In this document: piece after piece, positions 4,242-37,688 of the stretch
How positions within the stretch are numbered: position 1 is the first letter of the stretch
Layout: each line of letters starts with the position of its first letter
NCBI GenBank assembly: GCA_039683575.1
Contig: JBDKRC010000022.1
Span: forward strand, 1-37,688
Reading direction: 5' to 3'
From: Armatimonadia bacterium
GTDB lineage: Bacteria; Armatimonadota; Zipacnadia; Zipacnadales; UBA11051
Length of the DNA: 37,688 nt
Made by a program: the position numbers and the translations under genes
The notes under the pieces: generated by a model
Seen by the model: the letters and a program-made list of their open reading frames with translations, nothing else
Database searches by the model: none
Told to the model about the DNA's origin: nothing

Positions 4242-6095
4242 CTACCTTACTGTTTTAGCAAATAGTAGATTACTCGCTCGCCCCAGCGCCTCGACCGTCC
4301 AGACCACCGGATAGAGCACTTCACTATACCATAAACTGGCGAAGTAGAGACCAATGGGAGTGGGGCGAGTCCACGTCCCGTCTTCCACATTCCGCAATAG
4401 ACACTCGAGCCCCTGCAGCAGTGCCTCCGAGGATTCGCCCATCGCTGCCAGAGCCGCCAGTGCCAGAGCGGTTTCCTCGGCGGAAGTGTCCACTCCTGCT
4501 GCCCCGCCCCAGCCGCCGTCCGGGTTCTGCGCAGAGAGAAGATACTGCAGGCCGCGCTGGGTCATTTCGCTCTGAGGCTCAAGCTCGGCGAGCGCGAGCA
4601 GGACCCGAGCGGTGCCAAAGACCGGGTTGAGATGGCCCTCGGTGTACTGGTTGCCAAACCACAGCGGCACCCAGGAGCCGTCGGGGCGCTGGCGGCGGCG
4701 GAGGTAGGCCAGGCCTCGGATAGCGCTTCCGCTGTAGGGCGGGGGCTCGTACCCCGCCGTCTGGTCGTTCGGGCACGGCTGCGGCGGGGACTCCGCCGCT
4801 TGGTTGGTCGGTGATAACGGCTGCGGCGGGGCCGCCGCCGCTTGGTTGGTCGGTGGTAACGGCTGCGGCGGGGTACGAGCCCCCGCCCTACAGTGAGAAA
4901 GGGCCCGCAGCGCGTGGGCCGTGATGTCGTCGCAACTGGCGTCAAACGGCAGCTTGCCCCACCCACGGCAGAAGGTCGGCCATCCGCCGTCGCTGTTCTG
5001 CAGGTCTACCAGCCACTTTCGGCCTGATTGCAGTGCCTTCTCATCCAGATACCCCGCTAAGGCCAAGAGCGCGCCGGAGGTGTCGTCTGCATCAGGGACC
5101 GCGCCGGGAAGATGGCTCCAGCCCCACCCGCCGGGCGAGGCGCCGGTGAAGGGATGAACCTGCGTGTACTGCCGCTCTGCCAGCCACGCGAGGGTTCGAG
5201 CCGCCTCCGGCTCGGGAAGCCCTCCAGAGTGCGCCAGTGCATTGAAGGCGCTTGAGGTCACCCATACGGAGAGGTTGGTGTCAATCGGCCAACTGCCGTC
5301 AGCGCGCATGGACTGACGGAGAAACTGGAGGCCCTGTTTGAGCGAATGCTGATCGCCATGGCCGACAGAGAGCAATGCCATGCACACAAAGGCGGTCAGT
5401 GGGGTCGCTTCGAGGTAGCCACCCGATTGTGGCTGCAAAGCAATCAGCTTGCGGAGAGCCGCACGGGTAACCACTCGCCGAAGAGGCGAGGCGAACGCAT
5501 GGCCGATCGGACGGTGATACTCGATGGCGATGCCGATGGCGATGAGAGCGGGGAGGGCGTAGCTGACGACCTGCAGCGGGGTGTGTCGGAGGAGACTCTG
5601 GGGTACGACCGACCACTCATAGGGCAGCGGTGGCACGGCATGCCAGTCCACCAGGCCCGCCAGCGCGCAGTTCATGAGGATGGGGACAGCAAAGGTCCTG
5701 TCTGCGCCGTAGAGCCGGGTGATGGCCTGCACGCGCGCCTGGGGTGTGTCGGCGCCGTGGTCTTTGAGGTAGGCTTGGGATGCTTCGTCTGGCGTCTGTC
5801 CCGCCAGGATCAGCGCGGAACACACCAACAGCGTCGTCGCGAGGTTGCTCGGACTATCCGTCGTGTCACCCCAGCCGCCATCCTCGTTCTGCGTCTGGAT
5901 GAGCCACTCCACGCCCGCCTCGATTAGCGGACGGTCCTGTTCGAGCTTAGCGAGGCACAGGGCGCTTACCGCCGTGGCCGTTGAGAGCGCCGAGGAAGAC
6001 AGGTAGCCCTCCCAGTAGGTGCCGTCCACTCGTTGCGCCAGCAGATGCTGGCGCGTGGTCTCAAGCGCCTGCTGCAGCCGCTCGGCGTTGATCAC
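4242..6095 (-). CDS. Squalene-hopene cyclase-like class II terpene cyclase carrying an in-frame palindromic insertion
   Basis: WEGYLSSSALSTA; QW repeats (QNEDGGW, QNSDGGW, QRPDGSW, QNPDGGW); catalytic-type PDADDT at 5082-5093; GTG start overlaps the upstream TGA (GTGA). Confidence 0.88.
   Translation of the reverse strand: MINAERLQQALETTRQHLLAQRVDGTYWEGYLSSSALSTATAVSALCLAKLEQDRPLIEAGVEWLIQTQNEDGGWGDTTDSPSNLATTLLVCSALILAGQTPDEASQAYLKDHGADTPQARVQAITRLYGADRTFAVPILMNCALAGLVDWHAVPPLPYEWSVVPQSLLRHTPLQVVSYALPALIAIGIAIEYHRPIGHAFASPLRRVVTRAALRKLIALQPQSGGYLEATPLTAFVCMALLSVGHGDQHSLKQGLQFLRQSMRADGSWPIDTNLSVWVTSSAFNALAHSGGLPEPEAARTLAWLAERQYTQVHPFTGASPGGWGWSHLPGAVPDADDTSGALLALAGYLDEKALQSGRKWLVDLQNSDGGWPTFCRGWGKLPFDASCDDITAHALRALSHCRAGARTPPQPLPPTNQAAAAPPQPLSPTNQAAESPPQPCPNDQTAGYEPPPYSGSAIRGLAYLRRRQRPDGSWVPLWFGNQYTEGHLNPVFGTARVLLALAELEPQSEMTQRGLQYLLSAQNPDGGWGGAAGVDTSAEETALALAALAAMGESSEALLQGLECLLRNVEDGTWTRPTPIGLYFASLWYSEVLYPVVWTVEALGRASNLLFAKTVR
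4732..4893. repeat. REP-like doublet, family A (GTAG type), inside the cyclase CDS
   Basis: Perfect 28-bp inverted repeats at 4732-4759 and 4866-4893 (ctgtagggcgggggctcgtaccccgccg); internal 42-bp tandem repeat; total length 162 bp = 54 codons. Confidence 0.93.
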
Positions 6096-7591
6096 GGCGC
6101 CGCAGCCTTCCTGGCGCGGAGCAGCCGCCGCCACATCACGACGTTGCCCTTGCCAAGCGCCTGGATGAGCATCCGTCGTGCCGCGCTCACTCCAGCAGCC
6201 TTCTGGCCGTCAGCATACAGCCGTGGCACCCAGCGGAAGTTGAACTCGTAGGCCTCCTGCATGAGTTGCCAGTGCAGCCGGGTGAGGTTCGGCAGTGGCT
6301 CGCCTTGCACGGGAGCATAGATGACCGGGAAGATGGTCACCGGGCGGCCCTGCAGCGCTCGTACCCAGTCGAGCGTCTGCTGGATATCCTGCGGGGTCTC
6401 GCCGGGCAGCCCGACAACCAGTGACGCCATGGGGACGAAGCCGAGGCGCATCAGGCGCTCCAACTGCTCGCGGCAGAAGCCGCCCCAGTCTTCAGGCGCG
6501 GTGCGGCCCATCTTCGGCCTTCCGCCATTGGCCTGCAGAAGCTGGCCGGAGGCGGTCTCGATGCCGATATTGAACCAGGGGTAGCTGAGCGGAGTGCGGC
6601 CCGCGCCGCCAGCCAGCAGGCGACGCACCTCTGCAAGCTCGTCGTCGCTATACGCGGCGATGCTGATCACATTCACGTGATCTGCCTGCACGAGGCGCAA
6701 GCGCGGTAGGGCGGCGATGCGGCTCAGGAGCGCGATGAGTTCGGCGGGGCGGCAATTCAGGCCCTGCCCGCCGTAGCGCAGCAGGTCCTCACTGAGGATG
6801 GCGATGCTGGTCTGGCCGGCGCAGATATTGGTCTGGATGTCGGAGAGTATCCTGTCGGGCGGCAGATGCTGCATGGGGACGTTGCCGATAGTGCAAAACT
6901 CGCAGCCCAGCCCGCAACCGCGGCTGATTTCGACCACGCCCATGGTGCTGGCCCCGCGCAGCAGGGGGATGCGGTCTGCCGTAACCGGTTGGCCGTCGAT
7001 CACTGCGGGAAGCTCGCGCCCCTCGGCGAGGTCGCGCACGATCTGGGCTACGTTGCCCTCCGCATAGCCGAGCACAACATGGTCCACGCCCAGTTCCCGG
7101 CGCTTGGCGGGGTCATTGGCGAGTTGCCACGCCCCCGGCCCCCCGAGGAGTACCTTAGCCTGCGGGGCGCGCTCACTCACGATGCGCCGCACCTGCTGCA
7201 GGAGCTTGCGGAACATCGCCTGAGGGTAGATCTCGCCCCCAGCGACGCCGGTCATGGTGGAACTGCTCATTCCGAGGCCCACGGGCTCGCCGGAACTAAC
7301 CGCCACGACGCGGGTCTCGGGGCCAATGGCGTCGGCGAGATGGGCATCGTCCACCGTCACAAGCTGCTCAGGTGCAAGGCCGCCCTCCAGCAGCGCCGAT
7401 TCGACGCGACGCAGGCCAAGCGGGGCCACTGGCGCCTGTCCGTTGAAGTGTCTGGCGCGGGGGAGCAGCAACCGTTCGATGAGGGGAGCGGGAGACGAGG
7501 TGGTCTGGCTGGAGGCGAGCATACCGTCGAGCAGCACGGTGTACTGCGCCATGAGAGTCCGATCGGCGGTAAGGACTATGCGGTAGGCCAA
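6092..7591 (-). CDS. Radical SAM protein with an N-terminal B12-binding-like domain (COG1032 type), resembling the Grs/Gms family
   Basis: EISRGCGLGCEFC (CX3CX2C, 6893-6916), GGPGAWQL and IGIETAS; N-terminus IVLTADRTLM..APLGLRRVESAL. TTG start at 7591 was chosen because it follows the ferredoxin stop; the ORF track extends to 7630. Confidence 0.85.
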   Translation of the reverse strand: MAYRIVLTADRTLMAQYTVLLDGMLASSQTTSSPAPLIERLLLPRARHFNGQAPVAPLGLRRVESALLEGGLAPEQLVTVDDAHLADAIGPETRVVAVSSGEPVGLGMSSSTMTGVAGGEIYPQAMFRKLLQQVRRIVSERAPQAKVLLGGPGAWQLANDPAKRRELGVDHVVLGYAEGNVAQIVRDLAEGRELPAVIDGQPVTADRIPLLRGASTMGVVEISRGCGLGCEFCTIGNVPMQHLPPDRILSDIQTNICAGQTSIAILSEDLLRYGGQGLNCRPAELIALLSRIAALPRLRLVQADHVNVISIAAYSDDELAEVRRLLAGGAGRTPLSYPWFNIGIETASGQLLQANGGRPKMGRTAPEDWGGFCREQLERLMRLGFVPMASLVVGLPGETPQDIQQTLDWVRALQGRPVTIFPVIYAPVQGEPLPNLTRLHWQLMQEAYEFNFRWVPRLYADGQKAAGVSAARRMLIQALGKGNVVMWRRLLRARKAAAP

Positions 7592-8405: not shown

Positions 8406-8411
8406 ATTGTA
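8406..8411 (-). promoter_or_regulatory. Possible -10 box (TACAAT) for the leftward operon
   Basis: TACAAT on the minus strand in an AT-rich patch about 35 nt upstream of ATG 8372; no convincing -35. Confidence 0.35.
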
Positions 8412-8448
8412 TATGTACAGGGCGGTCTGCGCCAGATGGCATTCTCGC

Positions 8449-8527: not shown

Positions 8528-8550
8528 ACCAGAGTTCAGGCGAGATTGGC

Positions 8551-8579
8551 TTGACAGTGACCCGCACCAACTCTAGTAT
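8551..8579 (+). promoter_or_regulatory. Sigma70-type promoter of the rightward operon
   Basis: TTGACA (8551-8556), 17-nt spacer, TAGTAT (8574-8579); GGAG and then ATG 8622 downstream. Confidence 0.75.
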
Positions 8580-10235: not shown

Positions 10236-10312
10236 CCGCGCAGTGCGGGCGTCTCGCCCGCTCGGTACGGTGGCGACGCGGGGCCTGCGGGCGAGACGCC
10301 CGCACTACGCGG
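10236..10312. repeat. REP-like doublet, family C
   Basis: 26-bp inverted repeats at 10236-10261 and 10287-10312 with one mismatch; arm = GTAG + t + gcgggcg-tct-cgcccgc. Confidence 0.88.
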
Positions 10313-13457: not shown

Positions 13458-13525
13458 CGTTTGTAGCAAATCCGTAGCAATTGATTCACCGTGTATCGTT
13501 CGCGGCGCGCGCTTTGGGAGGCGTG

Positions 13526-15541
13526 ATGATGACTGACGAGTTTCCTGCCGTCCCGGCAGGTAGTGACCGAGCGAAGCTCTACCAGCGGGCCACGCTGATT
13601 ACAGCGGCGGTGGCCCTGGTGTTTTGCCTGGTTGTCCTGGGCCTGCTGATCAACAACACCGTGCAGGCGCGGTACTACGACCCCGTACAATCCTCGCAGA
13701 TGACGCTGCTCAAGGCCGAACTGGCCAAGCAGCCCACCAATCAGCAACTAATCGAGCAGGTCGGTACACTCGATGACTATATCCGTGATCGGTACTTCCT
13801 GACACGCTATCAGGCGGTCGTGGGCCTGTACCTGCTCTTGGGCGGGGCAGCCGTGCTGTTGCTAGCCCTGCACTTTTTCAACCGCCTCCAGTACAAAGCG
13901 CCCCTGCCGCTGTTCATTGAGCAACACCAGGCGTGGCTGCAGGCGGCCTTGGCGCGCCGGGCCATTATCATAGCGGCGGCGGTGGTGCTGGCTGGGATGC
14001 TGACTTTGGCGGTGTTGTCGCGCCATGACGCGGCGGCGGCGTATGCCAGATCCGGTCCGGCCGTACCGCTCGACCTGATGGCTCAGTCCTTCCCCAACCA
14101 ACCGCCGGACAGCGGCATGATGCCGCCGACAGGAATGCCCTCGATGCCGTCCATGCCCAGCGAAGGCATGCAGGGCCCTCCGGGGCCTGCAGGGCCCGCG
14201 GGACCTCCCGGACCTCCGGGAATGTCTGGACCTATGGGACCATCGGGTGCGCGTGGACGTCGCGGGGAGCGTGGCCCGGCCGGGCCTGCCGCCAAGGTTG
14301 CGAAAGCCCCAAAGCCCAAGCCTGAGCCGACAGGGCCGGGAGTCGCGGTCGAGGGTGGTCTGAAGCCGGAGGACCTGGTGAAGAATTGGAATGCGTTCCG
14401 GGGTCCCCTGAGCGGCGTTGCGACGGGTGACAAGTACCCTACAAGCTGGGATGCGACGGCCGGCAAGGGTGTCCTGTGGAAGGCGCCGGTGCCGCTTGAA
14501 GCGCCGAACTCTCCGATCTACTATGGCGGCAAGCTGTTCATGACTGGCGCGACTGACAAGCAGCGCGAAGTCTATGCCTACGATGCAGCCAAGGGCAAAC
14601 TCCTGTGGAAGAAGACCGTCAAGCCCAGCAGCGCTGAGCAGCCTGATGTGAGCCCCGACGCCGGCTATGCCTCGCCCACGATGGCTTGCGATGGGCAGCG
14701 CGTGTTTGCCATGTTCGCCGATGGCGATGTGGTAGCGTTCGATCTCGACGGCAAGCAGGTGTGGGACAAGCCGCTGGGCAAGCCGGACAACGTCTACGGA
14801 CACGCGTCTTCGCTTGCGGTATACAAGAACCTGCTGATCATTCAGTACGATCAGGGGCAGAGCGGCGACGATGGCCTGTCCGACGTGATCGCGCTGCAGA
14901 CCGCCACGGGCAAGAACGCCTGGCGCACGGCGCGGCCGGTGCCGGCGACGTGGAGCAGCCCCCTGGTGATCAACACGGGGCAGCGCGACGAGCTGATCCT
15001 GTGCGGCAACCCCTTTGTGATCTCCTATGAACCCGCAACGGGCAAGGAACTGTGGCGGGCAGAGTGCCTCAGCGGCGAGATCGCTCCCTCGCCCTGCTAC
15101 GCCGGTGGGCTGGTGTTCGCGGCCCAGGACGGGGCTGGCCTGTTCGCAATCCGCCCACCCGAGCCGGGCAAGGGCGACAAGGGGACTATCGCCTGGCAGG
15201 CCCAGGATGGACTTCCCGACACCGTCAGCCCCGTGAGCAATGGCGAGTACGTCTGGCTTACCACCTCCGCCGGTCTCGTGACGTGTTACGCGGTGGCCGA
15301 TGGCAAGAAGCTGTGGGAATATGACGTCAAGGAAATGGTGCAGGCCACGCCGGTTGTAGCGGGCAAGGGTCTGTACGTGACCGACGAGAAGGGCGTCACT
15401 CACATCCTCGAGGTCGGACCAACCGCAAAGGCACTGGGCTCCGGCAAAGTCGGGGACAAGGTGCGGGCGACCCCGGTGTTTGTGGACGGCAAGATCTTCA
15501 TGCGTGGTACAAAGACGCTGTTCGGTATCGGAGCGAAGTAG
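13526..15541 (+). CDS. Three-TM protein with a collagen-like stalk and a PQQ-like beta-propeller
   Basis: GGAGG ribosome-binding site; three hydrophobic segments; 14 G-X-Y triplets; [25 protein letters not shown] and WSSPLV motifs. Confidence 0.85.
14165..14290 (+). repeat. Collagen-like (G-X-Y)14 coding repeat
   Basis: [42 protein letters not shown]. Confidence 0.9.
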
Positions 15542-15563
15542 CAGTCAGAAGCGGAGACCATCT

Positions 15564-16901
15564 ATGAGTTCGACCGTTACCTTACCGCCCGTGCCAGTTG
15601 CGGGCGAGTTCGATGTCATAGTCTGCGGAGCCGGCCCTGCGGGGCTCGGCGCGGCTCTCGCCGCGGCACGACGCGGAGTGCGGACGCTGCTGCTGGAGCG
15701 CATGGGGGCGGTCGGCGGGCAGGGCAGTCACCTGCCGGTCAATACGTGGTGTGACACCCCCGGCGGCAAGCTGTTCGATGAGTTGGAAAGCAGGCTGGCG
15801 GCGCTGGGCAAAGTCCGGCGGGAGTTCTCTCCGGATAGGCATGTCTACCCACGGGGCCGCGCAGTGCTGGAGCGCGAGACGCTCAAGCTCGTAGCAATGG
15901 AGATGCTCCTGGAAGCCGGTGTGGAGGTGCGTCTGGGGACGGCCTTCGTGCAGACGCTGACTGAGGGCGAGCAAGTCACCGGCGTCGTCGTAGCCGACAA
16001 AAACGGGCTCTACGCCTTGTCAGCGAAGGTCGTGATAGACTGCACCGCCGATGCGGATGTGGCCGCGAGTGCCGGGGCTGAGTGCCGCAAGGGCGAGCCC
16101 ACCGACGGCCGCCTTATGCATGTGAATTACATGTTCGAGATACTCGGAGCTGACCGACAGCGCTACGAGGCTGAGAAGCCGGCCACCGAGGACCTGCTGG
16201 CGATGATCGCAGAGGCGCGGGAGCGTGGGGAGTTGTCCGCCCCGCCGGGCGCCTTCCGGCCGCTGGCCAAGACCTTCCCGTACGTTGCCGCTGAAGACGT
16301 GCTCGCACTCAACTCCTGGGAGATCGAGGGTGTGGATTGCTCGGACTGGGCGGCGGTCAATGAACTCTTGTGTCGGTGTCAGGCCATCGCGCTGCAGGTC
16401 GTGCGCTTTGCGCGCAAGTACCTGCCGGGGTACGAGAACTGCTCCGTGGGGCGGGTGTGGGATGTGCTGGGGACACGGGAGTCGCGTCGGCTGGTGGGCA
16501 AGTCGACACTGACCGGAGACGAGATTCTCTCAGCCCGCAAGTTCGACGACGGAATCGAGCAGGCCACGTTCTTCATTGATTTCCACGACTCGCCGCCGGG
16601 GCGCAGCATCCCCTACACGCAGGACTTTCGCGTCAGTCACGCCCCGTCGCTGGGCGACTGGTACGAGATCCGCTACGGGTGCCTTGTCCCCGAGCGCGTG
16701 ACGGGCCTGCTGGTCGCAGGCCGCTGCATCTCCGCCGAGCGCGAGGGTCTGGCCTCGATGCGCGTGATGCCCTCGTGCATGTTCACCGGCGAGGCCGCTG
16801 GTACTGCCGCGGCGCTGGCCGTGCAGCGTGGGGTACGGCCGCACGAACTGGATGGGCGCGAGTTGAAGCCGCTGGTGATGACGCCGGATAGGTTGATGTG
16901 A
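15564..16901 (+). CDS. FAD-dependent oxidoreductase (FAD_oxidored/PF12831-type)
   Basis: DVIVCGAGPAG, IDCTADAD, RESRRLVG, YEIRYGCLVP, LLVAGRCIS and RVMPSCMFTGEAAG; GGAG before ATG 15564. Confidence 0.88.
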   Translation: MSSTVTLPPVPVAGEFDVIVCGAGPAGLGAALAAARRGVRTLLLERMGAVGGQGSHLPVNTWCDTPGGKLFDELESRLAALGKVRREFSPDRHVYPRGRAVLERETLKLVAMEMLLEAGVEVRLGTAFVQTLTEGEQVTGVVVADKNGLYALSAKVVIDCTADADVAASAGAECRKGEPTDGRLMHVNYMFEILGADRQRYEAEKPATEDLLAMIAEARERGELSAPPGAFRPLAKTFPYVAAEDVLALNSWEIEGVDCSDWAAVNELLCRCQAIALQVVRFARKYLPGYENCSVGRVWDVLGTRESRRLVGKSTLTGDEILSARKFDDGIEQATFFIDFHDSPPGRSIPYTQDFRVSHAPSLGDWYEIRYGCLVPERVTGLLVAGRCISAEREGLASMRVMPSCMFTGEAAGTAAALAVQRGVRPHELDGRELKPLVMTPDRLM

Positions 16902-16907
16902 CCTTGA

Positions 16908-16991
16908 TCGCGTGGTAGGCATACTCCGTATGCCGGAACATGGACGAAGGCAGTCACGAGTCCCGGCATACGGAGTATGCCTACCACGCGA
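16908..16991. repeat. REP-like doublet, family B, copy 2
   Basis: Perfect 29-bp inverted repeats at 16908-16936 and 16963-16991 (tcgcgtggtaggcatactccgtatgccgg). Confidence 0.92.
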
Positions 16992-17035: not shown

Positions 17036-19426
17036 ATGAGTTTGCCCCAGCCGAATTTCCCCTGCCCCTGCCGGGAGGCCGCACCCGTGGACCTGGCCGC
17101 CGTGGATGAGATCATCCGCGAGCACGGCACGGCTCCGCAGGCCGTGGTGCCGATCCTGCAGGCGCTGCAGAAGCATTACAACTACCTGCCGCAGGAGGCG
17201 CTCCAGCGCGTCTGCGAGTTGACTGAGATCACCCCGGCCCAGATCATGGGCGTCTCCACCTTCTATCCCCGTTTTCGCCACCAGCCAGCCGGAAAGCACG
17301 TGATCAGCGTCTGCCATGGCACCGCCTGCCATGTGAAGGGCGCCGAGCGGGTGAGCGAGGCGTTGCTGCGGCATCTGAAACTGCCCGAGGGCGGGGACAC
17401 CACGGAAGATGGCGTGTTTACACTGCAGCGCGTGGACTGCCTGGGCTGCTGCACGCTGGCGCCTGTTGTGCAGATCGATGGCGTCACCTATGGCCACATC
17501 GCGCCCGATGGCGTGCCACAGATGCTGCAGGACTTCCTGGAGCTTGAGCGGCGCGGGGCACTGAGCCGTCAGGCGAGCGATGCGGAGACGGCCGAGGAAG
17601 GCCCCGAGATCCGCATCGGTGTCGGTTCGTGCTGCATCGCGGGCGGGAGCCTGGATGTGCGGGTGGCGCTGGAGGACACGGTACGGGAACTCGGCGTGGC
17701 CGCGGCGGTCAAGCCAGTGGGCTGTGTCGGCATGTGCCACCAGACGCCGCTGGTGGAAGTACACCTGCCGGGCTGCGAACCCGCGATCTATGCGCGGGTG
17801 CAGCCGGAGGACGCCGCGGACATCGTGCGGCGGCACTTCGCGCCGAAGGGGATTGTGCGCAAGGCGCGGCTGAGCCTGAACCGCGCGTTGGACTGCCTGC
17901 TGACCGACGAGGCGTGGGCGCCGGTGAGCCGCTACAGCGTGGACGTGCGCGACGGTGCGGTCGGAGAGTTCCTTGGCCCGCAGAAGCACCTGGCGACCGA
18001 GCTATACGGTACTGTAGACCCGCTGGACCTTGATGATTACCTCGCCCACGAGGGTTTCATGGCGCTGCGCAAGGCGCTGGGGGAGATGGTCCCCGAGCAG
18101 GTCGTGGGCGCGATCCGTGAGGCGGGGCTGCGCGGGCGTGGCGGTGCGGGTTTCCCGACGGCGACCAAGTGGGAGTTCGTGCGGCAAAATGAGGCGGAGA
18201 CGAAGTATGTCATCTGCAACGGCGACGAGGGCGACCCCGGCGCCTTCATGGACCGCATGCTGCTGGAGTCTTACCCCTTCCGGGTGCTGGAGGGGCTGAT
18301 CATCGCGGCGTACACCGTCGGTGCAAGCGAGGGCTTCCTGTACATCCGCCACGAGTACCCGCTGGCTGTACAACGCATCGAGGCCGCGATTGCGGCGCTG
18401 ATGGCGCGCGGTTTCCTCGGTGACAACATCCTCGGCACCGATTTCTGCCTGAAGCTCTCGATCATGCAGGGCGGGGGGGCGTTTGTATGCGGCGAGGAGA
18501 CCGGACTAATCGCCTCGCTGGAGGGACGGCGGGGCATGCCGCGGCTGCGACCGCCGTTCCCGGCGGAGCAGGGCCTGTGGGGACAGCCGACGCTGGTCAA
18601 TAACGTCGAGACCCTGGCGCTCGTGCCGTGGGTCGTGCGCCACGGGCCACACGCCTTCGCCGGGCTCGGTACGGACGCCAGCAAGGGCACCAAGGTCTTC
18701 TCGCTGACCGGCAAAACGCGCCGCGGCGGGCTGATCGAAGTGCCGATGGGTGTGACGATCCGCCGGATTGTGGAGGAGATCGGCGGCGGAGTGGGGGAGG
18801 GCAGAACCTTCAAAGCGGTACAGATCGGCGGGCCATCCGGTGGGTGCATTCCGGCGGAACTGGCCGACACGCCAATTGACTACGAGAGCCTGCAGGCGGC
18901 GGGGGCGATCATGGGCTCGGGTGGGCTCGTGGTCATGGACGACCGCGACTGCATGGTGGATGTGGCGCGGTACTTCCTCGAGTTCACGCAGCGAGAGTCA
19001 TGCGGCAAGTGCACCTTCTGCCGCATCGGGACCCGGCGGATGCTCGACATACTCGATGCCCTCTGCACGGGCCAGGCGAAGCATGGAGACCTTGAGAAGC
19101 TGGAGAGCCTGGCGCGCCAGGTCAAGCAGGGCAGCCTCTGCGGCCTCGGCCAGACCGCGCCGAATCCCGTTCTGACGACCTTGCGGTACTTCGGCGAGGA
19201 GTACGAAGCCCACCTCGAGGGCAGGTGCCCGGCGGGCAAGTGCAAGGCCCTCATAGCCTATGGCATCAACGACAAATGCATCGGCTGCACGAAATGCGCG
19301 CAGCACTGTCCCGGCGAGGCCATTGCGCTCAAGCCGTATGAGCGGCATATCATTGACCAACGCAAATGCCTGCGCTGCGGGACGTGCCGCGAAATCTGCC
19401 GCCATGACGCGGTGGTGGTAGAGTAA
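17036..19426 (+). CDS. Fused NuoE + thioredoxin-like [2Fe-2S] + NuoF diaphorase with C-terminal 2x[4Fe-4S] (HydC/HydB-like)
   Basis: CHGTAC..CLGCC (NuoE); SCCIAGG..GCVGMC; LRGRGGAGFP, CNGDEGDPGAFMDR, GAFVCGEET and ESCGKCTFCR (NuoF); terminal ferredoxin motifs. Confidence 0.92.
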   Translation: MSLPQPNFPCPCREAAPVDLAAVDEIIREHGTAPQAVVPILQALQKHYNYLPQEALQRVCELTEITPAQIMGVSTFYPRFRHQPAGKHVISVCHGTACHVKGAERVSEALLRHLKLPEGGDTTEDGVFTLQRVDCLGCCTLAPVVQIDGVTYGHIAPDGVPQMLQDFLELERRGALSRQASDAETAEEGPEIRIGVGSCCIAGGSLDVRVALEDTVRELGVAAAVKPVGCVGMCHQTPLVEVHLPGCEPAIYARVQPEDAADIVRRHFAPKGIVRKARLSLNRALDCLLTDEAWAPVSRYSVDVRDGAVGEFLGPQKHLATELYGTVDPLDLDDYLAHEGFMALRKALGEMVPEQVVGAIREAGLRGRGGAGFPTATKWEFVRQNEAETKYVICNGDEGDPGAFMDRMLLESYPFRVLEGLIIAAYTVGASEGFLYIRHEYPLAVQRIEAAIAALMARGFLGDNILGTDFCLKLSIMQGGGAFVCGEETGLIASLEGRRGMPRLRPPFPAEQGLWGQPTLVNNVETLALVPWVVRHGPHAFAGLGTDASKGTKVFSLTGKTRRGGLIEVPMGVTIRRIVEEIGGGVGEGRTFKAVQIGGPSGGCIPAELADTPIDYESLQAAGAIMGSGGLVVMDDRDCMVDVARYFLEFTQRESCGKCTFCRIGTRRMLDILDALCTGQAKHGDLEKLESLARQVKQGSLCGLGQTAPNPVLTTLRYFGEEYEAHLEGRCPAGKCKALIAYGINDKCIGCTKCAQHCPGEAIALKPYERHIIDQRKCLRCGTCREICRHDAVVVE

Positions 19427-21024
19427 TGCCAAATTTGACTATAGACGGACAGGCTGTTGCGGTGCCGGTCGGGGCGACGATCCTCGACGCGGCGCGGCTG
19501 CTTGGGATTGAGATTCCGACGCTGTGTCATCGCGCCGGTTGCCGGCCTGAGACCTCGTGCCTCGTGTGCGTGGTGAGAGTGAATGGCAGCGGTCGGCTCG
19601 TGCCGTCGTGTGCAACGCCTGCGGCGGAGGGCATGGTAGTCGAGAGCGAGACCGACGAAGTCCTCGAAGCGCGACGAACGGCGCTGGAACTGCTGTTCGG
19701 CGACCATCTCGGCGACTGTCTGGCGCCCTGCCAGATGACCTGCCCGGCTGGTCTGAACATCCCAGACATGTTGCGCCTGCTCGACGCCGGGCGTATGACC
19801 GAGGCAGTGGCGCTGGTGAAGCGGCGGATACCGCTGCCGGCGATTGTCGGGCGCATTTGCGCGGCGAATTGCGAACGGGGATGCCGCAGGGCGCAGCTTG
19901 ATAGCGCCATCCAAATCGCGTGTCTCGAGCAGCAAGTGGGGGACTATGATCTGCAGGCCGAGACACCGTACCGGCCCCTGGTGCCACCGGCTACGGGGAT
20001 GCGGATAGCCGTAGTGGGCTCGGGGCTAGTGGGCCTGACCGCGGCGTGGATGCTGCGGCGCGAAGGGCATGTGGTCACGATTATGGAGCCGGGTGAGCGT
20101 TTGGGCGGGGAACTGCTCGCGATGCCTGAAGGGCAACTGCCGGCAGCAGTGCGCGAGGCGGAGATCCAGCGCGTGCTGGACTTGGGGATAGAGGTACGGC
20201 TGCAGGCTGCGGCGGAACCGGATGCCGTGGCGCAGCAATACGACGCGGTTGTGTGGACCTCGCCTCTTGATGAGCAGGTGACGCTGGCGGAGAAGGTGTT
20301 TGCAGTCGCGACGCCCGATCATGCCGCGCGGGCCGTGGCCTCCGGGCGGGAAGTAGCCCGTGAGATCAGCGCGCACCTCCGTGGGGAAGCCAGTCCAGAG
20401 CCACATCGGCCCTTCACGGTGCACATGAGGCGGCTGGAGGCGGAAGAGTTGCAGTGCATGTCCGACTGTAGGGCGGGGGCTCGTACCCCGCCGCAGCCGT
20501 TATCTGCGACCGCCCGGACGGCGGGGTACAAGCCCCCGCCCTACAGCGGAGAGGCCGTCCGCTGCCTGGAATGCGACTGCACTGAGCCCGACACTTGCGC
20601 CCCGCCGCAACCGGACAGCGCCACTACCCCGGCGGGGTACGAGCCCCCGCCCTACAGCGGAGAGGCCGCCCGCTGCCTGAAATGCGACTGCACTGAGCCC
20701 GACACTTGCGCCTTGCGCCGATGGGCAGCGGCGTATGCCGTGCAGCCGCGGCGGTTTGCCGGGCATGAGCGGAAGTTCGAGTTGAATGAAACCCATCCGC
20801 TGATCGTCTTTGAAGCAGGGAAGTGCATAGCTTGTGGGTTGTGCGTACAGATTGCCGAGCGCTACTGCGAGCCGCTCGGGCTGGCCTTCATCGGGCGTGG
20901 CTTCACTGTACGGCCGGGCGTGCCATGGGATGAGACGCTGGCGGAGGGGCTGCAACGGGCGGCGCGGGAATGTGCGGAGGCTTGCCCCACTGCGGCGCTG
21001 AGCTTGAGGGGACCACTACAGTGA
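19426..21024 (+). CDS. NuoG/HydA N-terminal-like [2Fe-2S] + GltD-like Fe-S/FAD + C-terminal [4Fe-4S] oxidoreductase subunit
   Basis: IPTLCH..SCLVCVV..PSC; DCLAPCQMTCP..GRICAANCERGCRR; IAVVGSGLVG; RCLKCDC; CIACGLCV..CAEACP; TAATG coupling. Confidence 0.85.
   Translation: MPNLTIDGQAVAVPVGATILDAARLLGIEIPTLCHRAGCRPETSCLVCVVRVNGSGRLVPSCATPAAEGMVVESETDEVLEARRTALELLFGDHLGDCLAPCQMTCPAGLNIPDMLRLLDAGRMTEAVALVKRRIPLPAIVGRICAANCERGCRRAQLDSAIQIACLEQQVGDYDLQAETPYRPLVPPATGMRIAVVGSGLVGLTAAWMLRREGHVVTIMEPGERLGGELLAMPEGQLPAAVREAEIQRVLDLGIEVRLQAAAEPDAVAQQYDAVVWTSPLDEQVTLAEKVFAVATPDHAARAVASGREVAREISAHLRGEASPEPHRPFTVHMRRLEAEELQCMSDCRAGARTPPQPLSATARTAGYKPPPYSGEAVRCLECDCTEPDTCAPPQPDSATTPAGYEPPPYSGEAARCLKCDCTEPDTCALRRWAAAYAVQPRRFAGHERKFELNETHPLIVFEAGKCIACGLCVQIAERYCEPLGLAFIGRGFTVRPGVPWDETLAEGLQRAARECAEACPTAALSLRGPLQ
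20466..20712. repeat. Family A doublet in frame inside the oxidoreductase CDS, plus a 111-bp-period duplication
   Basis: 28-bp arms at 20466-20493 and 20519-20546 (one mismatch; 81 bp = 27 codons); direct repeat 20520-20601 vs 20631-20712. Confidence 0.92.
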
Positions 21025-25093: not shown

Positions 25094-26266
25094 ATGATCC
25101 GTAGGGATAGCCATAACCGCGTAGTGCGGGCGTCTCGCCCGTTGTGTTGGCTGGGAGACCGCAGATGGTCTCGGCTCGGCCCCTGTCTTCTGGCACTGCT
25201 GTTTGTGGCAGGCCTTGGCTGGGCGGCTGACCGCAACTGGCCATCGTTTCGCGGCAATCAGTCGCTGACCGGCTCCACCGGTGCCGCCTTCACGGATAAG
25301 CCGCGGTTGCGTTGGACCTACCGGGCCGGCGCCTCCATCGAGGCCAACGCTGCCATTGCCGGCGACACGGTCTATCTCGCGACGCGGGGCAAAACCGTCC
25401 TGGCGCTGAATCTGGCCAACGGGAAGTTGAAGTGGCGGTTTGGTGGTGGGGACTACTTCACAGCCTCGCCCTGTGTGGTCGGCGAGACCGTCTATGTGGG
25501 CGATGAGAACGGCACCTTCTGGGCGCTCAACGCTGCGACCGGACGGCCACGGTGGAAATACCGCACCAGCGATAAGATCATTTCGTCGGCGACGCCCGCG
25601 CCTGGTGCTGTGCTCTTTGGCTCGTATGACAACTATCTCTACAAGCTCAACGCCCAGACCGGCAAGAAGATCTGGAGCTTCAAGTCCGGCGCCCAGGTGC
25701 ATACCACCCCCTGCGTGTTCGGCAACAGCGTCGCCATCGCCGGGTGTGACGGTTATGTGCGCGTGATCAGCCTGCAGACCGGCAAGCAGACCGCCGCCGC
25801 GCATTTTGACACCAACTTCGGCGCCTCGCCCGCGCAGGACCGGGGCCTGCTCTTCGTCGGCAGCATGAGTGGCGACTATGCCGCCGTGCGGACCTCCGGC
25901 GCGGTCCTGTGGCAGACAGTGGTGGGGAAGAGCAGCGGCGGGGCCAGCTTCGGCTCTCCCGCAGCCTCCGGCAGCTACGTGGTCTTCCCGTCACGCAACA
26001 ACAGCGTGTTCTGCCTCGACCGCGCCACCGGTGCCACGCGCTGGCGGTTCAACGTGAAGGGCGAGGCGGACTCGTCTCCTGCCATCGCGGGCAACCGCGT
26101 GTTTTTCGGCGCGGACGATGGCAACTTCTACGGAGTGACCCTGGACGGGGGCAGACTCGTCTGGCGGTTTAGGGCGGGGCCTCGAGTGGCGGCCGGGCCG
26201 GCCATCGGGCAGGGCAAGATGGTCATCAGCGCCAGCGACGGCACGGTATACTGTTTCGGCCGCTAG
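25094..26266 (+). CDS. Secreted PQQ-like/BamB-type beta-propeller protein
   Basis: WPSFRGN..TG and regular propeller repeats (ASPCVVG, FGSYDNYLY, DSSPAIAG); exact start uncertain. Confidence 0.87.
   Translation: MIRRDSHNRVVRASRPLCWLGDRRWSRLGPCLLALLFVAGLGWAADRNWPSFRGNQSLTGSTGAAFTDKPRLRWTYRAGASIEANAAIAGDTVYLATRGKTVLALNLANGKLKWRFGGGDYFTASPCVVGETVYVGDENGTFWALNAATGRPRWKYRTSDKIISSATPAPGAVLFGSYDNYLYKLNAQTGKKIWSFKSGAQVHTTPCVFGNSVAIAGCDGYVRVISLQTGKQTAAAHFDTNFGASPAQDRGLLFVGSMSGDYAAVRTSGAVLWQTVVGKSSGGASFGSPAASGSYVVFPSRNNSVFCLDRATGATRWRFNVKGEADSSPAIAGNRVFFGADDGNFYGVTLDGGRLVWRFRAGPRVAAGPAIGQGKMVISASDGTVYCFGR
25115..25141 (+). repeat. Single family C REP-like arm
   Basis: aaccgcgtagtgcgggcgtctcgcccg is the exact reverse complement of 10288-10314. 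Confidence 0.85.
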
Positions 26267-27691: not shown

Positions 27692-27753
27692 GCGGGCGAG
27701 GACATTGCCCCGCGCGCGTGGAATTGACGCTCACTCAGTATGGGAAGGGACTG

Positions 27754-29457
27754 TTGATCTTGAGATTACCGAACATGTGGGGCGGCGGGCAGCTTTTCGC
27801 ATTTTCGGGGCTTGAAGGCCAGACAAGCTGGGCCGCGCCCTTCGTTGGCAGTCTGCTGGATGAGGGGCTGGCGGTAGATTTCCACCAGTCCCCGCCCGTG
27901 GTGCTGGAGGTCACAGGGCCCGAGGCACAGGTGCTGGAGGTCAAGCCCGAGTGGGTGATCGGGGATGCCTTTGAGGTGGCAGTAAGCTGGCCTACCGGCA
28001 GCGGGCGAGTCGTGGCGGCCTTCGCGGACTGCTGGACGTTGGTGGGGCGTGCGAGCGAGGGGTTGCAGGTGCGGCTGCGGGAGGTCGCCGACCAGCCCGA
28101 CCAGCGACACCTGCAAGCGAGTGGCAACTTCGCCCTGGTGCGTGGCGAGCAGGGCGTGTGGGTGCTGGCGCTGGACCCGGAGGGCCCCGAGGCGGCTCAC
28201 ACGCGGGCGCTGGAGGCGCTGCGTCTGGATGCGGCGGTCGTGGCCGACGAGCGGCTGGCTTTCGTCGAGGAACTCGAGGTGGGGGAGATCCTCCCGCCCG
28301 CTGACGAACGGACCTACCGCAAGGCCGCAAGCGTTTTGAAGACTAACGTTATGGCTCCTGAGGGCAGCATAGGGCGGCGCTGGACCACTCCCGACCGCTG
28401 GCCGCACCGGCACATGTGGCTGTGGGACTCGTGCTTCCATGCTCTCGGCTGGCTGTATCTCGACCCGCAACTGGCCATGGACGCGGTCGAGGCCATGGTC
28501 GAGAGCGCCTACCCCGATGGCATGATTCCGCTGTGCTCGGCGCCGACGCCCTCGCCATACAAGCTCTCCCAGCCCCCGCTGCTCGCCTGGACTGTGTGGG
28601 AACTGCACCAGGCCACCGGCGACGTGGACTTCCCGGTGCGGGTCTATGACGGTCTGGCGGGCTATGTGCGATGGTTCCTGAACGAGCGCGACCGTAACCA
28701 CAACGGCCTCCTGGACTGGTTCAAACAGGACGAAGACAAGCTGTGCCACTGCGGCGAGTCCGGCCTCGACAACTCCCCGCGCTTCGACCAGCCGGGCATT
28801 GATGACCACGTGGACCTGTCGTGCATGATTTACAACGAGATGGAGTGCCTGGCTCGAATCGCGTTCATCGGCGATAGGTTCGACGAAGCAGCCGAGTGGC
28901 GCGAGCAAGCCCAGAAGCTGGCGGCGGCCATCAACGAGCGGATGTGGGACGAAGAGACGGGGTTCTACTACGACGTGCGGGCTGACGGGGAATTGCTGAA
29001 GATGAAGACCGTGGTAGGCTTCCTGCCGATGTGGGCGGGCATCGCCTCCGAAGAGCGCCTCGGCCGCCTGATGGCGCACCTGCTGGACCCGCGCGAGTTC
29101 GCTACCGAGTTCCCGATCCCCACGGTAGCGCTGGACGAGCCGAGTTTCACTGACGACATGTGGCGTGGCCCGACGTGGATCAACATGAACTACCTGATCT
29201 TCCGGGGCCTCATGCGCAACGGTCTGATGGCGGAGGCGAACGACCTGCGTGCCGCAACGCTACGGCAGATCGCGCGGTGGTACGGCAGCGAAGGCTCCAT
29301 CTACGAGTATTACGACTGTTTCGCGAAGACCGCTCCGCGCAAGCTGCACCGCAAGGGCGGCGTAGGCGGGCAGGGCGGCTACGGCGTCGGCACCATCGCC
29401 GATTACGGCTGGTCAGCCGCGCTGTACGTGGCGCTGGCGAATGAGGGGATTGAGTAG
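27754..29457 (+). CDS. (alpha/alpha)6 glycoside hydrolase, GH63/MGH1-like
   Basis: MWLWDSCFH, SQPPLLAW, GESGLDNSPRFD, WRGPTWINMNYL and YEYY; start somewhere in 27718-27775, TTG 27754 follows GGAAGGGA. Confidence 0.8.
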   Translation: MILRLPNMWGGGQLFAFSGLEGQTSWAAPFVGSLLDEGLAVDFHQSPPVVLEVTGPEAQVLEVKPEWVIGDAFEVAVSWPTGSGRVVAAFADCWTLVGRASEGLQVRLREVADQPDQRHLQASGNFALVRGEQGVWVLALDPEGPEAAHTRALEALRLDAAVVADERLAFVEELEVGEILPPADERTYRKAASVLKTNVMAPEGSIGRRWTTPDRWPHRHMWLWDSCFHALGWLYLDPQLAMDAVEAMVESAYPDGMIPLCSAPTPSPYKLSQPPLLAWTVWELHQATGDVDFPVRVYDGLAGYVRWFLNERDRNHNGLLDWFKQDEDKLCHCGESGLDNSPRFDQPGIDDHVDLSCMIYNEMECLARIAFIGDRFDEAAEWREQAQKLAAAINERMWDEETGFYYDVRADGELLKMKTVVGFLPMWAGIASEERLGRLMAHLLDPREFATEFPIPTVALDEPSFTDDMWRGPTWINMNYLIFRGLMRNGLMAEANDLRAATLRQIARWYGSEGSIYEYYDCFAKTAPRKLHRKGGVGGQGGYGVGTIADYGWSAALYVALANEGIE

Positions 29458-29468
29458 AGACCACGGCT

Positions 29469-29547
29469 GCCTGTAGGAGCGCTCACCAGAGCGCGATCGC
29501 AAGCCAATAAGACCCGGAGTCGCGCTCTGGTGAGCGCTCCTACAGGC
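29469..29547. repeat. REP-like doublet, family E (GTAG type)
   Basis: Perfect 28-bp inverted repeats at 29469-29496 and 29520-29547 (gcctgtaggagcgctcaccagagcgcga). Confidence 0.9.
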
Positions 29548-29576
29548 GGCGTTTGAGGCGATTTCTGGAGGTTCGT

Positions 29577-37342: not shown

Positions 37343-37452
37343 CTGTAGGGCCGGGGCTCGTACCCGGCCGTCTGGCGGTCGTAGATAACGACGCGGCGGG
37401 GTACGAGCCCCCTGCGACGCAGACGTCGCTACGCCCTACAGCCCAATGGCGT
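37343..37452. repeat. Family A doublet, intergenic copy with an interrupted right arm
   Basis: ctgtagggccggggctcgtacccggccg ... cggcggggtacgagccccc[20-nt insert]gccctacag cccaatggcgta. Confidence 0.85.
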
Positions 37453-37455: not shown

Positions 37456-37688
37456 CTATTCCTGGTCCTCAAATAACCGCTCGAACTTAATAGTCCATGC
37501 CGCCTCGTCTATCCCGTCCAGCGCGCTCTGCATGGCCTCATTGGCCTTCAGCCACGCCCCCGTGTCCAGCGGCGTCTTGCTGCTCAACCCGTTTCCGGCT
37601 GTGGGGCCGGGGCTCGTACCCGGCAGTTCGGTTCGTAGATAACGACGCGGCGGGGTACTAGCCCCCGCCCTACAGCCCAATGGCGTAG
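37456..37688 (-). CDS. Possible 3' end of a gene entering from the right edge
   Basis: Frame open from the window edge to TAG at 37456; 37456-37598 looks coding (AWLKANEAMQSALDGIDEAAWTIKFERLFEDQE). Confidence 0.4.
   Translation of the reverse strand, partial: TPLGCRAGASTPPRRYLRTELPGTSPGPTAGNGLSSKTPLDTGAWLKANEAMQSALDGIDEAAWTIKFERLFEDQE
37599..37687. repeat. Family A doublet, copy at the right edge
   Basis: ctgtggggccggggctcgtacccggc ... cggcggggtactagcccccgccctacag cccaatggcgta; direct repeat of 37343-37452. Confidence 0.85.

What the first reader, a model, noticed from the sequence alone, without database searches (positions are those of the whole stretch)
20466..20550. The same element in frame, in the same orientation and reading frame, in a second unrelated protein
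Seen: an 81-bp doublet encodes CRAGARTPPQPLSATARTAGYKPPPYSG in the Fe-S oxidoreductase, matching the cyclase insert at both ends. The flanks actgtagg and ctacagcgga are also shared. Two unrelated enzymes of one cluster therefore carry homologous repeat-derived peptides. Inference: insertion is recurrent and selected for the stop-free frame, since GTAG contains a TAG stop in another frame.
Basis: seen in the sequence. Interest (0 to 1): 0.75.

Follow-up and report, generated by a model that had tools for sequence, protein, structure and literature searches.

The report
In-frame REP hairpin repeat inside genes
A small mobile hairpin repeat (a pair of inverted GTAG-type REP units) sits in frame inside two unrelated enzyme genes of an Armatimonadota bacterium and is read as a floppy proline-rich loop, a phenomenon already described in other bacteria.

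Summary
Window 20466-20546 is an 81-bp inverted doublet of a 28-nt GTAG-headed hairpin repeat. It is read in frame as CRAGARTPPQPLSATARTAGYKPPPY(SG) in a 2Fe-2S/4Fe-4S/NAD-binding oxidoreductase gene. The same arms and spacer start lie in frame in a squalene-hopene-cyclase-like gene (4732-4893, minus strand).

It is a REP dimer (REPIN-like). There are 7 core copies in the window against 0 expected. With the window, 94 distinct elements were found, 90 of them in 87 stretches from 10 assemblies, mostly Armatimonadota; most are extragenic. Four units carry compensatory stem changes. There is no target duplication. One related assembly holds a RAYT transposase.

Both inserts fall in low-confidence loops of otherwise confident AlphaFold models. 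Both are shared with the closest orthologues, so they are neither artefacts nor fresh lesions.

Selection for the stop-free frame is supported only as survivorship: 3 of 6 orientation/phase combinations are open, and other phases are used elsewhere.

New details:
- The inserts grow by in-frame duplication: 42-nt repeats in the cyclase, and a 111-bp duplication that doubles a four-cysteine motif.
- Four more cyclase orthologues at about 57-61% identity carry diverged REP-dimer peptides in the same loop, which implies repeated gain or loss.

Intragenic REP dimers were described in 2013, so this is a new member of a known kind.

The parts
20466..20546 (+). 81-bp REP dimer (GTAG ends outward) in frame in the oxidoreductase gene. 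Left unit 20466-20493, spacer 20494-20518, right unit 20519-20546. Encodes residues 348-374.
   Evidence: (I16). Folds as one long DNA hairpin at -40.9 kcal/mol, z = -8.0, with 0 of 200 shuffles as stable.
20598..20657 (+). Second, partial copy: the tail of a left arm (CCCCGCCGCA), a variant spacer and a complete right unit (20630-20657). Encodes PPQPDSATTPAGYEPPPYS.
   Evidence: (I14).
20519..20712 (+). 111-bp in-frame tandem duplication (two 83-nt copies, 96% identical). It comprises the right REP unit plus 55 nt of host sequence and duplicates the motif RCL(E/K)CDCTEPDTC.
   Evidence: D5; 2 differences in the host part, both non-synonymous. It is absent from orthologue P0003. AlphaFold places only the second motif copy in the confident fold.
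19426..21024 (+). Host gene 1: 532-aa iron-sulfur/NAD(P)-binding oxidoreductase (Fer2_4, Fer4_20, NAD_binding_8).
   Evidence: All invariant cysteines of 118 relatives are retained.
4732..4893 (-). 162-bp REP dimer in frame in the cyclase gene, with the spacer expanded by 42-nt tandem repeats (4775-4873, 2.4 copies). Encodes residues 415-468.
   Evidence: (I13, D8).
4242..6134 (-). Host gene 2: 630-aa squalene-hopene-cyclase-like protein (SQHop_cyclase_N and _C).
   Evidence: 1gsz_A, E = 1.3e-22.
37343..37412 (+). Copy of the same family in which the left unit has a compensated stem (GGCCGGGG/CCCGGCC) and the right unit is truncated. It lies outside the long minus-strand ORF 35242-37311.
   Evidence: (D1, D4).
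37598..37676 (+). Dimer of the same family with a GTGG head on the left unit, near the window end.
   Evidence: (I12, I15).

Best explanation
The element is a dimer of a GTAG-type repetitive extragenic palindrome (a REPIN-like element). Each unit is YTGTAG followed by a 7-bp G+C stem (GGCGGGG/CCCCGCC) and a 7-nt loop. Two units face each other across a 17-26-nt spacer.

Such repeats are thought to be spread by a REP-associated tyrosine transposase (RAYT) acting on single-stranded hairpins, without target duplication; this step is inferred. One copy lies in the linker-coding part of the oxidoreductase gene and another in a loop-coding part of the cyclase gene.

Both copies have lengths that are multiples of three. 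The host codon phase reads x-TGT-AGG and so avoids the TAG. They are therefore translated into Pro/Ala/Gly-rich segments that AlphaFold leaves unstructured between well-folded parts.

They persist because these sites tolerate insertions; this is a survivorship argument and is inferred. The G+C-rich internal repeats then promote slippage or illegitimate recombination, giving in-frame expansions: 42-nt units in the cyclase and a 111-bp duplication in the oxidoreductase.
For: Repeat identity and copy number:
- 7 window copies against 0 expected.
Of these, 62 are single units and 25 are outward-GTAG dimers, mostly 75-80 nt.
- G, T, A and G are present at the four head positions in 124-125 of 126 units. 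This is partly forced by the search pattern.
- 4 units carry double compensatory stem changes.
- The dimer hairpin folds at -40.9 kcal/mol, z = -8.
- No direct repeats flank either insert.

Mostly extragenic: of 73 elements with enough flank, a codon-usage test plus reading supports in-frame intragenic placement for 5. These are the 2 window genes and L022, L076 and L079. L076 lies inside a Pfam GH20b match.

RAYT: L011:299-868 scores 85.2 bits against NCBIfam NF047646 (cutoff 80) and matches Y1_Tnp. A dimer of this family lies about 615 nt away.

Tolerated loops:
- Oxidoreductase model: mean pLDDT 86.7, but 71/54/45/50/47/54 for residues 351-410.
- Cyclase model: mean pLDDT 89.5, but 78/52/46/38/41/63 for residues 411-470, between helices 402-417 and 468-481.

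Not an artefact or a fresh lesion: the nearest orthologues from other records carry the insert at the same place. P0003 is 91% identical and P0123 is 94% identical, with one 14-aa repeat fewer. Catalytic and cysteine motifs are intact.
Against: - The RAYT that was found is directly flanked by a 63-nt inverted repeat of a different GTAG repeat. The cognate enzyme of this family is therefore not identified, and no RAYT is present in the window. Pfam on the 22 long ORFs shows none, and a motif regex found none.
- Both arms of the window inserts match the family core at 0-1 mismatch, although the inserts predate the split from P0003 and P0123. Simple neutral decay would predict some erosion.
- In the oxidoreductase the element replaces a native linker rather than adding to it, which a plain insertion does not explain.
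- Expression of either protein was not tested.
- The codon-usage model was trained on window genes and may misjudge the flanks of distant assemblies.
Confidence: 0.85

Rival explanations
1. Domesticated linker. The REP-derived peptide has been recruited and is kept by selection as a flexible proline-rich loop or interaction motif. That would explain its retention across species, its in-frame expansion and its recurrence in one cyclase loop.
For: - Six cyclase sequences (P0002, P0123, P0127, P0129, P0131, P0132) carry REP-dimer-like peptides in the same loop and the same phase.
- The inserts are kept open in the P0003 and P0123 orthologues.
- The expansions are all in frame.
- The oxidoreductase linker length is roughly preserved: 36 aa against a modal 33.
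Against: - The segments are predicted to be disordered.
- Close relatives within the same clade lack the insert (P0137, P0133, P0125, P0126).
- The spacers differ completely between lineages.
- No other protein with the peptide turned up. One search gave 1 hit (P0003) among 2 candidates, and one search gave 0 hits in 1.84 billion representatives.
- Di Nocera et al. argue against functional constraint for such inserts (passages read in PMC3733652).
Confidence: 0.1
2. The host genes are decaying pseudogenes or are not expressed, and the open frame across the element is incidental.
For: - The oxidoreductase lineage (P0001, P0003, P0004) lacks about 30 residues of the nucleotide-binding domain that relatives have.
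- A duplicated cysteine motif could be disruptive.
Against: - Both ORFs are full length, and the family's invariant residues are kept.
- Codon usage is gene-like on both sides in the same frame.
- Orthologues at 91-94% identity also keep the frame open across the insert.
- The AlphaFold models are confident outside the insert.
Confidence: 0.05
3. Assembly artefact. The in-gene copies, or at least the 111-bp duplication, were created by mis-joining repeat-containing reads or strain variants in a metagenome assembly.
For: - The repeat breaks assemblies. 21 of 94 elements lie too close to the end of the fetched sequence to evaluate, and at least 15 loci have the unit within about 100 nt of a contig end.
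- The partial proteins P0004 and P0124 end exactly in CRAGAR(TPP).
- The two duplicate units differ in spacer and by 2 host bases, as two strain alleles would.
Against: - The insert itself is present in independent records (P0003, P0123).
- The duplication junction (host ...TGCGCC joined to CCGCCGCA...) is a novel sequence that the assembler must have found in reads.
- The duplication is exactly 37 codons long and keeps the frame.
Confidence: 0.07
4. A question within the main reading, so its weight is not additive with the other rivals. The cyclase-loop inserts stem from one ancient insertion that was later homogenised against each genome's own REP consensus and lost several times, rather than from repeated independent insertions.
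For: - All six carriers fall in one well-supported 16-row clade (SH-aLRT 99).
- All six use the same reading phase.
- The window arms are at consensus despite the age of the insert.
Against: - The carriers are interleaved with insert-free orthologues. At least 4 changes are needed, 3 of them forced by starred branches.
- A tree holding the six together is rejected: delta lnL 112.6, p-AU 0.0016. The group was named after the tree had been seen.
- The insert starts 2, 4, 8, 10 or 15 residues after the conserved ...RAL/RAV, and the spacers are unrelated.
- P0131 and P0132 carry the compensated stem variant in both arms. That variant exists as free DNA copies elsewhere (L021, L063).
Confidence: 0.3

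Closest known systems
Intragenic GTAG/CGTC REPs (Di Nocera, De Gregorio & Rocco 2013, PMC3733652; abstract and passages read)
   Same: - A GTAG tag at one end of a short stem-loop.
- Outward-GTAG ('HH') dimers with 20-100-bp spacers.
- Mostly intergenic, but some copies lie inside known genes. More than half of those inserts are dimers encoding 20-30 aa, and clusters encode 43-82 aa.
- Some genes are hit twice or in several species.
- The authors propose neutrality in flexible linkers or loops.
   Different: - That survey lists GTAG repeats in Proteobacteria, Cyanobacteria, Chloroflexi and the PVC group. The term 'Armatimonad' does not occur in its text.
- The host genes here are a cyclase and an iron-sulfur oxidoreductase, not the DNA-repair genes that paper emphasises.
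- In-frame growth of the insert and a REP-bounded duplication of host codons did not appear in the passages I read.
Rickettsia palindromic elements (RPE; first report recalled as Ogata et al. 2000, seen here only through review passages in PMC10969869)
   Same: Palindromic repeats inserted in frame into many unrelated genes, adding a peptide segment without destroying the host protein.
   Different: RPEs are about 100-150 bp and each family carries its own conserved ORF. Di Nocera et al. assign RPE-4 and RPE-6 to the CGTC class. They have no sequence relation to this GTAG family, and the host is an obligate intracellular alphaproteobacterium.
REPIN/RAYT systems of Pseudomonas and enterobacteria (Bertels & Rainey 2011 and Nunvar et al. 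2010; both recalled, not read here)
   Same: Two inverted REP units forming one long hairpin, a GTAG head, many dispersed copies, and a single-copy RAYT gene flanked by REPs.
   Different: The cognate RAYT for this family is not identified. The described REPINs are treated as extragenic.
Intragenic MITEs such as ERIC elements (review PMC10969869, passages read)
   Same: Small non-autonomous repeats that can create in-frame fusions with host ORFs.
   Different: MITEs have terminal inverted repeats derived from an IS element and target-site duplications. No duplication flanks these inserts.

Membership tests
GTAG-type REP / REPIN | Short imperfect palindrome (stem 5-13 bp, loop 2-20 nt) | tested here: met
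   A 7-bp stem GGCGGGG/CCCCGCC with the 7-nt loop GCTYGTA. Four of 126 units have both sides of a stem pair changed.
GTAG-type REP / REPIN | Unpaired GTAG (or GTGG) tetranucleotide at one end | tested here: met
   GTAG in all 7 window copies except one with GTGG. Present in 124-125 of 126 units, but the collection scan required GTRG, so the loci are not an independent test.
GTAG-type REP / REPIN | Many dispersed copies, mostly outside genes | tested here: met
By the codon-usage test plus reading, 5 of 73 evaluable elements are in frame inside genes.
GTAG-type REP / REPIN | Inverted dimers able to fold as one hairpin | tested here: met
   25 outward-GTAG dimers among 94 elements, mostly 75-80 nt. 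The window dimer folds at -40.9 kcal/mol, z = -8.
GTAG-type REP / REPIN | Cognate RAYT gene flanked by units of the same family | tested here: inconclusive
   A RAYT (NF047646, 85.2 bits against a cutoff of 80) is present in a related assembly, about 615 nt from a dimer of this family. Its immediate 63-nt inverted flanks belong to another GTAG repeat. None is present in the window.
GTAG-type REP / REPIN | No target-site duplication | tested here: met
   The flanks of both in-gene copies share no direct repeat.
Rickettsia palindromic elements | Sequence membership in one of the RPE families (100-150 bp, own conserved ORF) | not tested
   No RPE sequence was compared. The size (81 bp) and the GTAG rather than CGTC tag argue against membership (passages in PMC3733652). 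The resemblance is in behaviour only.
MITE | Terminal inverted repeats of a parent IS element plus target-site duplication | tested here: not met
   There is no target duplication. The whole element is a hairpin built from two REP units rather than TIRs around an unrelated core.
Known structured RNA family | Match to an Rfam model at its gathering score | tested here: not met
   0 matches in the whole window.

The most novel reading that the evidence does not exclude
One loop of the cyclase is a hotspot that has captured REP dimers independently at least three times in Armatimonadota, always in the same reading phase. Each lineage uses its own REP variant, and sister lineages use at least one other palindromic repeat. 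That would imply either targeted integration into this gene segment or selection for a REP-encoded proline-rich loop, meaning that a selfish hairpin repeat is being turned into protein sequence repeatedly.
Probability: 0.25. Interest if true: 0.65.

Novelty: new member of a known kind. Interest (0 to 1): 0.38.

Why it matters
It documents REP-dimer repeats, and their translation inside enzymes, in a phylum that the 2013 survey of these repeats did not list. It also shows two ways such an insert keeps changing a protein afterwards: in-frame tandem growth of the insert, and a repeat-bounded duplication that doubles a metal-binding motif.

For annotators it has practical value. The repeat breaks assemblies in the middle of genes, which produces truncated 'partial' proteins. 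It also creates long spurious ORFs in this G+C-rich DNA.

The recurrent occupation of one cyclase loop would be worth a proper test of targeted insertion against tolerance. Otherwise the phenomenon is ordinary.

Tried and rejected
- Stop-to-stop ORFs spanning the element overcall intragenic copies. 31 of 94 passed a length filter. Of the 29 locus ORFs among them that were sent to Pfam, 7 had any family, and in most of those the domain lay on one side only, so the repeat sits upstream of the real start. I replaced this with a codon-usage test of both flanks.
- That test flagged L015 and L018 as in frame. Reading shows the repeat about 25 codons into the open frame and, in L018, directly before an evident start and signal peptide (L015 by position only), so I count both as 5' leader copies.
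- L021 looked like a cyclase by position (419 open codons upstream) but is a membrane-protein gene ending before the repeat.
- Peptide searches for further carriers gave almost nothing. Region 342-381 of P0001 gave 1 hit (P0003) among 2 candidates in the 292-931-aa length range. A 30-aa query against 1.84 billion representatives gave 0 hits. Short length, composition filters and 50% clustering make this weak evidence of absence.
- The window does not overlap any fetched locus at 150 bp or more, so the source genome's own census could not be made.
- A protein-domain explanation (an old shared peptide module) is rejected. The identity is at DNA level, on both strands, and includes untranslated copies.
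- A frame-bias test is underpowered. There are 2 window events with 3 of 6 combinations open. If the cyclase lineages are independent, there are 5 events all in one of two open phases (about 1 in 32), but independence is unproven.
Full report
**What is there**

Window 20466-20546 is an 81-bp inverted doublet. The arms are CTGTAGGGCGGGGGCTCGTACCCCGCCG and its near-perfect reverse complement: 28 nt, 96% complementary, 25 nt apart.

It lies inside ORF 19426-21024(+). This is a 532-aa protein with Fer2_4, Fer4_20 and NAD_binding_8 domains. The doublet is read as CRAGARTPPQPLSATARTAGYKPPPY, followed by SG.

The same arms, 100% complementary to each other, bracket 4732-4893. This segment lies inside the squalene-hopene-cyclase-like ORF 4242-6134(-), which reads CRAGARTPPQPL...AGYEPPPYSG.

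The 25-nt core occurs 7 times in the window at up to 3 mismatches, against 0.00 expected from 100 shuffles. Two further copies, at 37343-37412 and 37598-37676, lie beyond the last long ORF.

- The arms are palindromic, so 'same orientation' has meaning only for the asymmetric spacer. Its start, CAGCCGTTA(T/C)C, is on the coding strand in both genes.
- The 'shared flanks' belong to the element. T at -1 and C/T at -2 before GTAG are near-invariant, in 123 and 125 of 126 units.
- TCCG and CGGA pair as an outer extension of the hairpin in the oxidoreductase copy.
- Further out the flanks are unrelated: 16 of 45 and 22 of 45 nt identical.

**What kind of element it is**

Each unit has a GTAG head, a 7-bp G+C stem (GGCGGGG/CCCCGCC) and a 7-nt loop. 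Two units face each other with the GTAG ends outward. The whole dimer folds as one DNA hairpin of -40.9 kcal/mol, against a shuffle mean of -20.5 (z = -8.0, 0 of 200 shuffles as stable).

With the window these hold 94 distinct elements:

| Source | Elements |
|---|---|
| One Armatimonadia assembly | 33 |
| One Armatimonadota assembly | 32 |
| Two 'candidate division WS1' assemblies | 17 |
| The window | 4 |
| Six other assemblies | 8 |

By architecture, 62 are single units and 25 are outward-GTAG dimers, mostly 75-80 nt long.

Four of 126 units carry changes on both sides of a stem pair: GGCGCGG/CCGCGCC twice and GGCCGGGG/CCCGGCC twice. This points to a constraint on the hairpin. Because the scan demanded a near-exact core, the variation seen is limited by design.

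Neither in-gene copy is flanked by a direct repeat.

A motif search of the fetched loci found one RAYT gene, L011:299-868. It scores 85.2 bits against NCBIfam NF047646 'REP-associated tyrosine transposase' (cutoff 80) and also matches Pfam Y1_Tnp. A dimer of this family lies about 615 nt from it. Its immediate 63-nt inverted flanks, however, are a different GTAG repeat. The lineage therefore has the enzyme class, but the cognate enzyme is not identified.

No Rfam family matches anywhere in the window.

These features fit GTAG-type REPs and their 'HH' dimers as defined by Di Nocera et al. 2013 (PMC3733652, abstract and passages read). They also fit what Bertels and Rainey call REPINs (recalled, not read here).

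**Are the in-gene copies real and tolerated?**

The closest orthologues come from other records and carry the insert at the same position.

- P0003 (494 aa, 91% identical) reads CRAGACSPPQPLSATAQTAGYEPPPYSG.
- P0123 (603 aa, 94% identical) has the cyclase insert with one 14-aa repeat fewer.
- Two partial proteins, P0004 and P0124, end exactly in CRAGAR(TPP). This is what a contig break in a repeat looks like.

Orthologues at 45-63% identity lack the peptide in the oxidoreductase family, and most of those in the cyclase family lack it too.

Family-invariant residues are kept. These include all the cysteines of the oxidoreductase and the DxDD region of the cyclase.

Codon usage is gene-like in the same frame on both sides of both inserts.

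AlphaFold models built on 118- and 117-row alignments are confident overall, with mean pLDDT 86.7 and 89.5. Confidence drops only over the inserts:

- Oxidoreductase residues 351-410: 71/54/45/50/47/54 per block of ten.
- Cyclase residues 411-470: 78/52/46/38/41/63, between helices 402-417 and 468-481.

The inserts therefore sit in a linker and in a loop between two helices, and are predicted to be unstructured.

**How common is in-frame placement, and is there a frame bias?**

A first pass with stop-to-stop ORFs overcalled badly: 31 of 94 elements passed, with little Pfam support.

A codon-usage test of both flanks could evaluate 73 of the 94 elements; the other 21 lie too near the end of the fetched sequence. 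It flagged 7 as in frame. Reading removes two of them, L015 and L018, which sit in 5' leaders. That leaves 5 of 73:

- the two window genes;
- L022, a GH20-family protein, reading VGRGLVPRP;
- L076, inside a GH20b domain match, reading GGVRAPALQ;
- L079, reading GGVQAPALQ.

Other open phases are thus in use. For the 81-bp element itself, 3 of the 6 orientation/phase combinations are stop-free. Only 3 of the 21 short dimers have a length divisible by three.

Two window copies sharing one combination is therefore not significant. The 'selection for the stop-free frame' is the ordinary filter that removes disrupted genes.

1. *The inserts keep growing in frame.*
   - The cyclase spacer holds 2.4 copies of a 42-nt unit with 94% matches. 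Each unit starts at CCCCGCCGCAGCCG, the inner end of the left arm.
   - In the oxidoreductase gene a 111-bp tandem duplication (83 nt compared, 96% identical) repeats the right unit plus 55 host bases. This doubles the conserved RCLxCDC...C motif.
   - The second copy begins with the same CCCCGCCGCA motif.
   - The host parts of the two copies differ at 2 of 55 bases, both non-synonymous, whereas the two spacers differ strongly.
- This fits recombination between two alleles, or conversion from another copy, better than slow divergence.
   - P0003 lacks the duplication. AlphaFold folds only the second motif copy with confidence.

2. *In the oxidoreductase the element stands in for the native linker.* Across the 118-row alignment the modal length of this segment is 33 aa (54 rows). 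It is 36 aa in P0003 and 73 aa in the window protein with its duplication.

3. *The same cyclase loop holds related inserts in more distant orthologues at about 57-61% identity*.
   - P0127 reads CGARARTPP...AGYQPPPY.
   - P0131 reads CRARARTAP...ARYKPAPY.
   - P0132 is a decayed version of P0131.
   - P0129 reads CSAGACT...PPPYSG.
   - The G-to-R and P-to-A changes in both arms of P0131 are exactly what the compensated stem variant GGCGCGG/CCGCGCC would encode. That variant exists as free DNA copies in L021 and L063.
   - P0134, P0128 and P0130 carry a different palindrome-like insert (GAPASSR...LPAGSRRS). P0147 possibly carries a single unit in another phase.
   - On a tree built without the insert columns, all six CRAG-type carriers fall in one 16-row clade (SH-aLRT 99). 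They are interleaved with insert-free proteins. At least 4 changes of state are needed, 3 of them forced by well-supported branches.
   - A tree holding the six carriers together is rejected: delta lnL 112.6, p-AU 0.0016. The group was defined after the tree had been seen.
   - The insert starts 2 to 15 residues after the conserved RAL/RAV, and the spacers are unrelated between lineages.
   - Repeated capture in a permissive loop is the simplest reading. One old insertion with homogenisation and repeated loss is not excluded. The orthologues' DNA, which I could not fetch, would decide between them.

**Comparison with what is known**

Di Nocera et al. (2013) already report the following in the passages I read:

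- GTAG and CGTC REPs occur inside known genes in several species.
- More than half of these inserts are dimers or groups encoding 20-30 aa.
- Clusters encode 43-82 aa.
- Some genes are hit twice.
- The inserts are probably neutral because they fall in linkers or loops.

Rickettsia palindromic elements are the classic case of in-frame palindromic inserts (review passages in PMC10969869).

The present case matches this behaviour and meets the structural criteria of a GTAG REP dimer. Only the RAYT link is unresolved. What is new is limited:

- the phylum, which is not among those listed in the 2013 survey, and for which 'Armatimonad' gave no occurrence in that paper;
- the host genes;
- the in-frame growth and the REP-bounded host duplication;
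- the recurrent occupation of one cyclase loop.

Two literature searches for REPIN together with 'protein-coding' or 'intragenic' returned only the 2013 paper as relevant.

**Verdict**

This is a new member of a known kind and of modest interest. The cyclase-loop recurrence is the one thread worth following.

Noticed in passing
window 8443-8533 and 16905-16991: A second repeat family: inverted dimers with arms GTGGTAGGCATGCTCCGCATGCCGGA (35 and 32 nt, 91-97% complementary, 20-21 nt apart). One lies just after ORF 15480-16901. The other overlaps the annotated start of ORF 7593-8570(-) (I7-I9, I21).
   Followed up: no
window 29466-29550: A third GTAG-headed dimer family (CTGTAGGAGCGCTCACCAGAGCGCGA; 31-nt arms, 97% complementary), lying between ORFs 27718-29457 and 29553-34142 (I10).
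   Followed up: no
window 10236-10312 and 25115-25141; L059:161-303: A fourth palindromic family (GCGCAGTGCGGGCGTCTCGCCCGC): one dimer in a gene gap, and a single unit at the very start of ORF 25094-26266 (I18, I23). In L059 a dimer of this family is nested inside the spacer of a dimer of the studied family.
   Followed up: partly
L046:3150-3825 (same contig as L011): A RAYT gene (3214-3714) bracketed by a 63-nt inverted repeat, 95% complementary, built from another GTAG repeat (GTAGGGGCGCGTTTTGCGGAGCG...). This is a compact 'REPtron'-like unit.
   Followed up: partly
loci L003, L004, L023, L024, L031, L039, L045, L049, L052, L053, L064, L013, L050, L069 and others; proteins P0004, P0124: Many contigs start or end within about 100 nt of a repeat unit, and two orthologue proteins are truncated exactly inside the in-gene repeat. 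The repeat fragments metagenome assemblies even within genes.
   Followed up: partly
P0001/P0003/P0004 against relatives, alignment A1 columns about 285-324: This lineage's oxidoreductase lacks about 30 residues of the nucleotide-binding domain that all nine more distant relatives in the alignment have. The consequence for function is unknown.
   Followed up: no
proteins P0134, P0128, P0130 (cyclase loop): A different, palindrome-like peptide (GAPASSR...LPAGSRRS), present in one or two copies in the same loop. It is probably another repeat family translated in frame. No DNA was available.
   Followed up: partly
window 105-7630, minus strand: A terpenoid-type gene group: a prenyltransferase-repeat protein, a polyprenyl synthetase fused to DUF116, the cyclase-like gene and a radical SAM protein. 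Downstream, many PQQ-like beta-propeller proteins are scattered through the window, one of them (13481-15541) with a collagen-like repeat.
   Followed up: no
Genome-contig loci L025 and L064: The same repeat core appears once each in contigs binned as Planctomycetota and Coriobacteriia, both at contig ends. Mis-binned Armatimonadota contigs are a likely cause. This was not checked.
   Followed up: no
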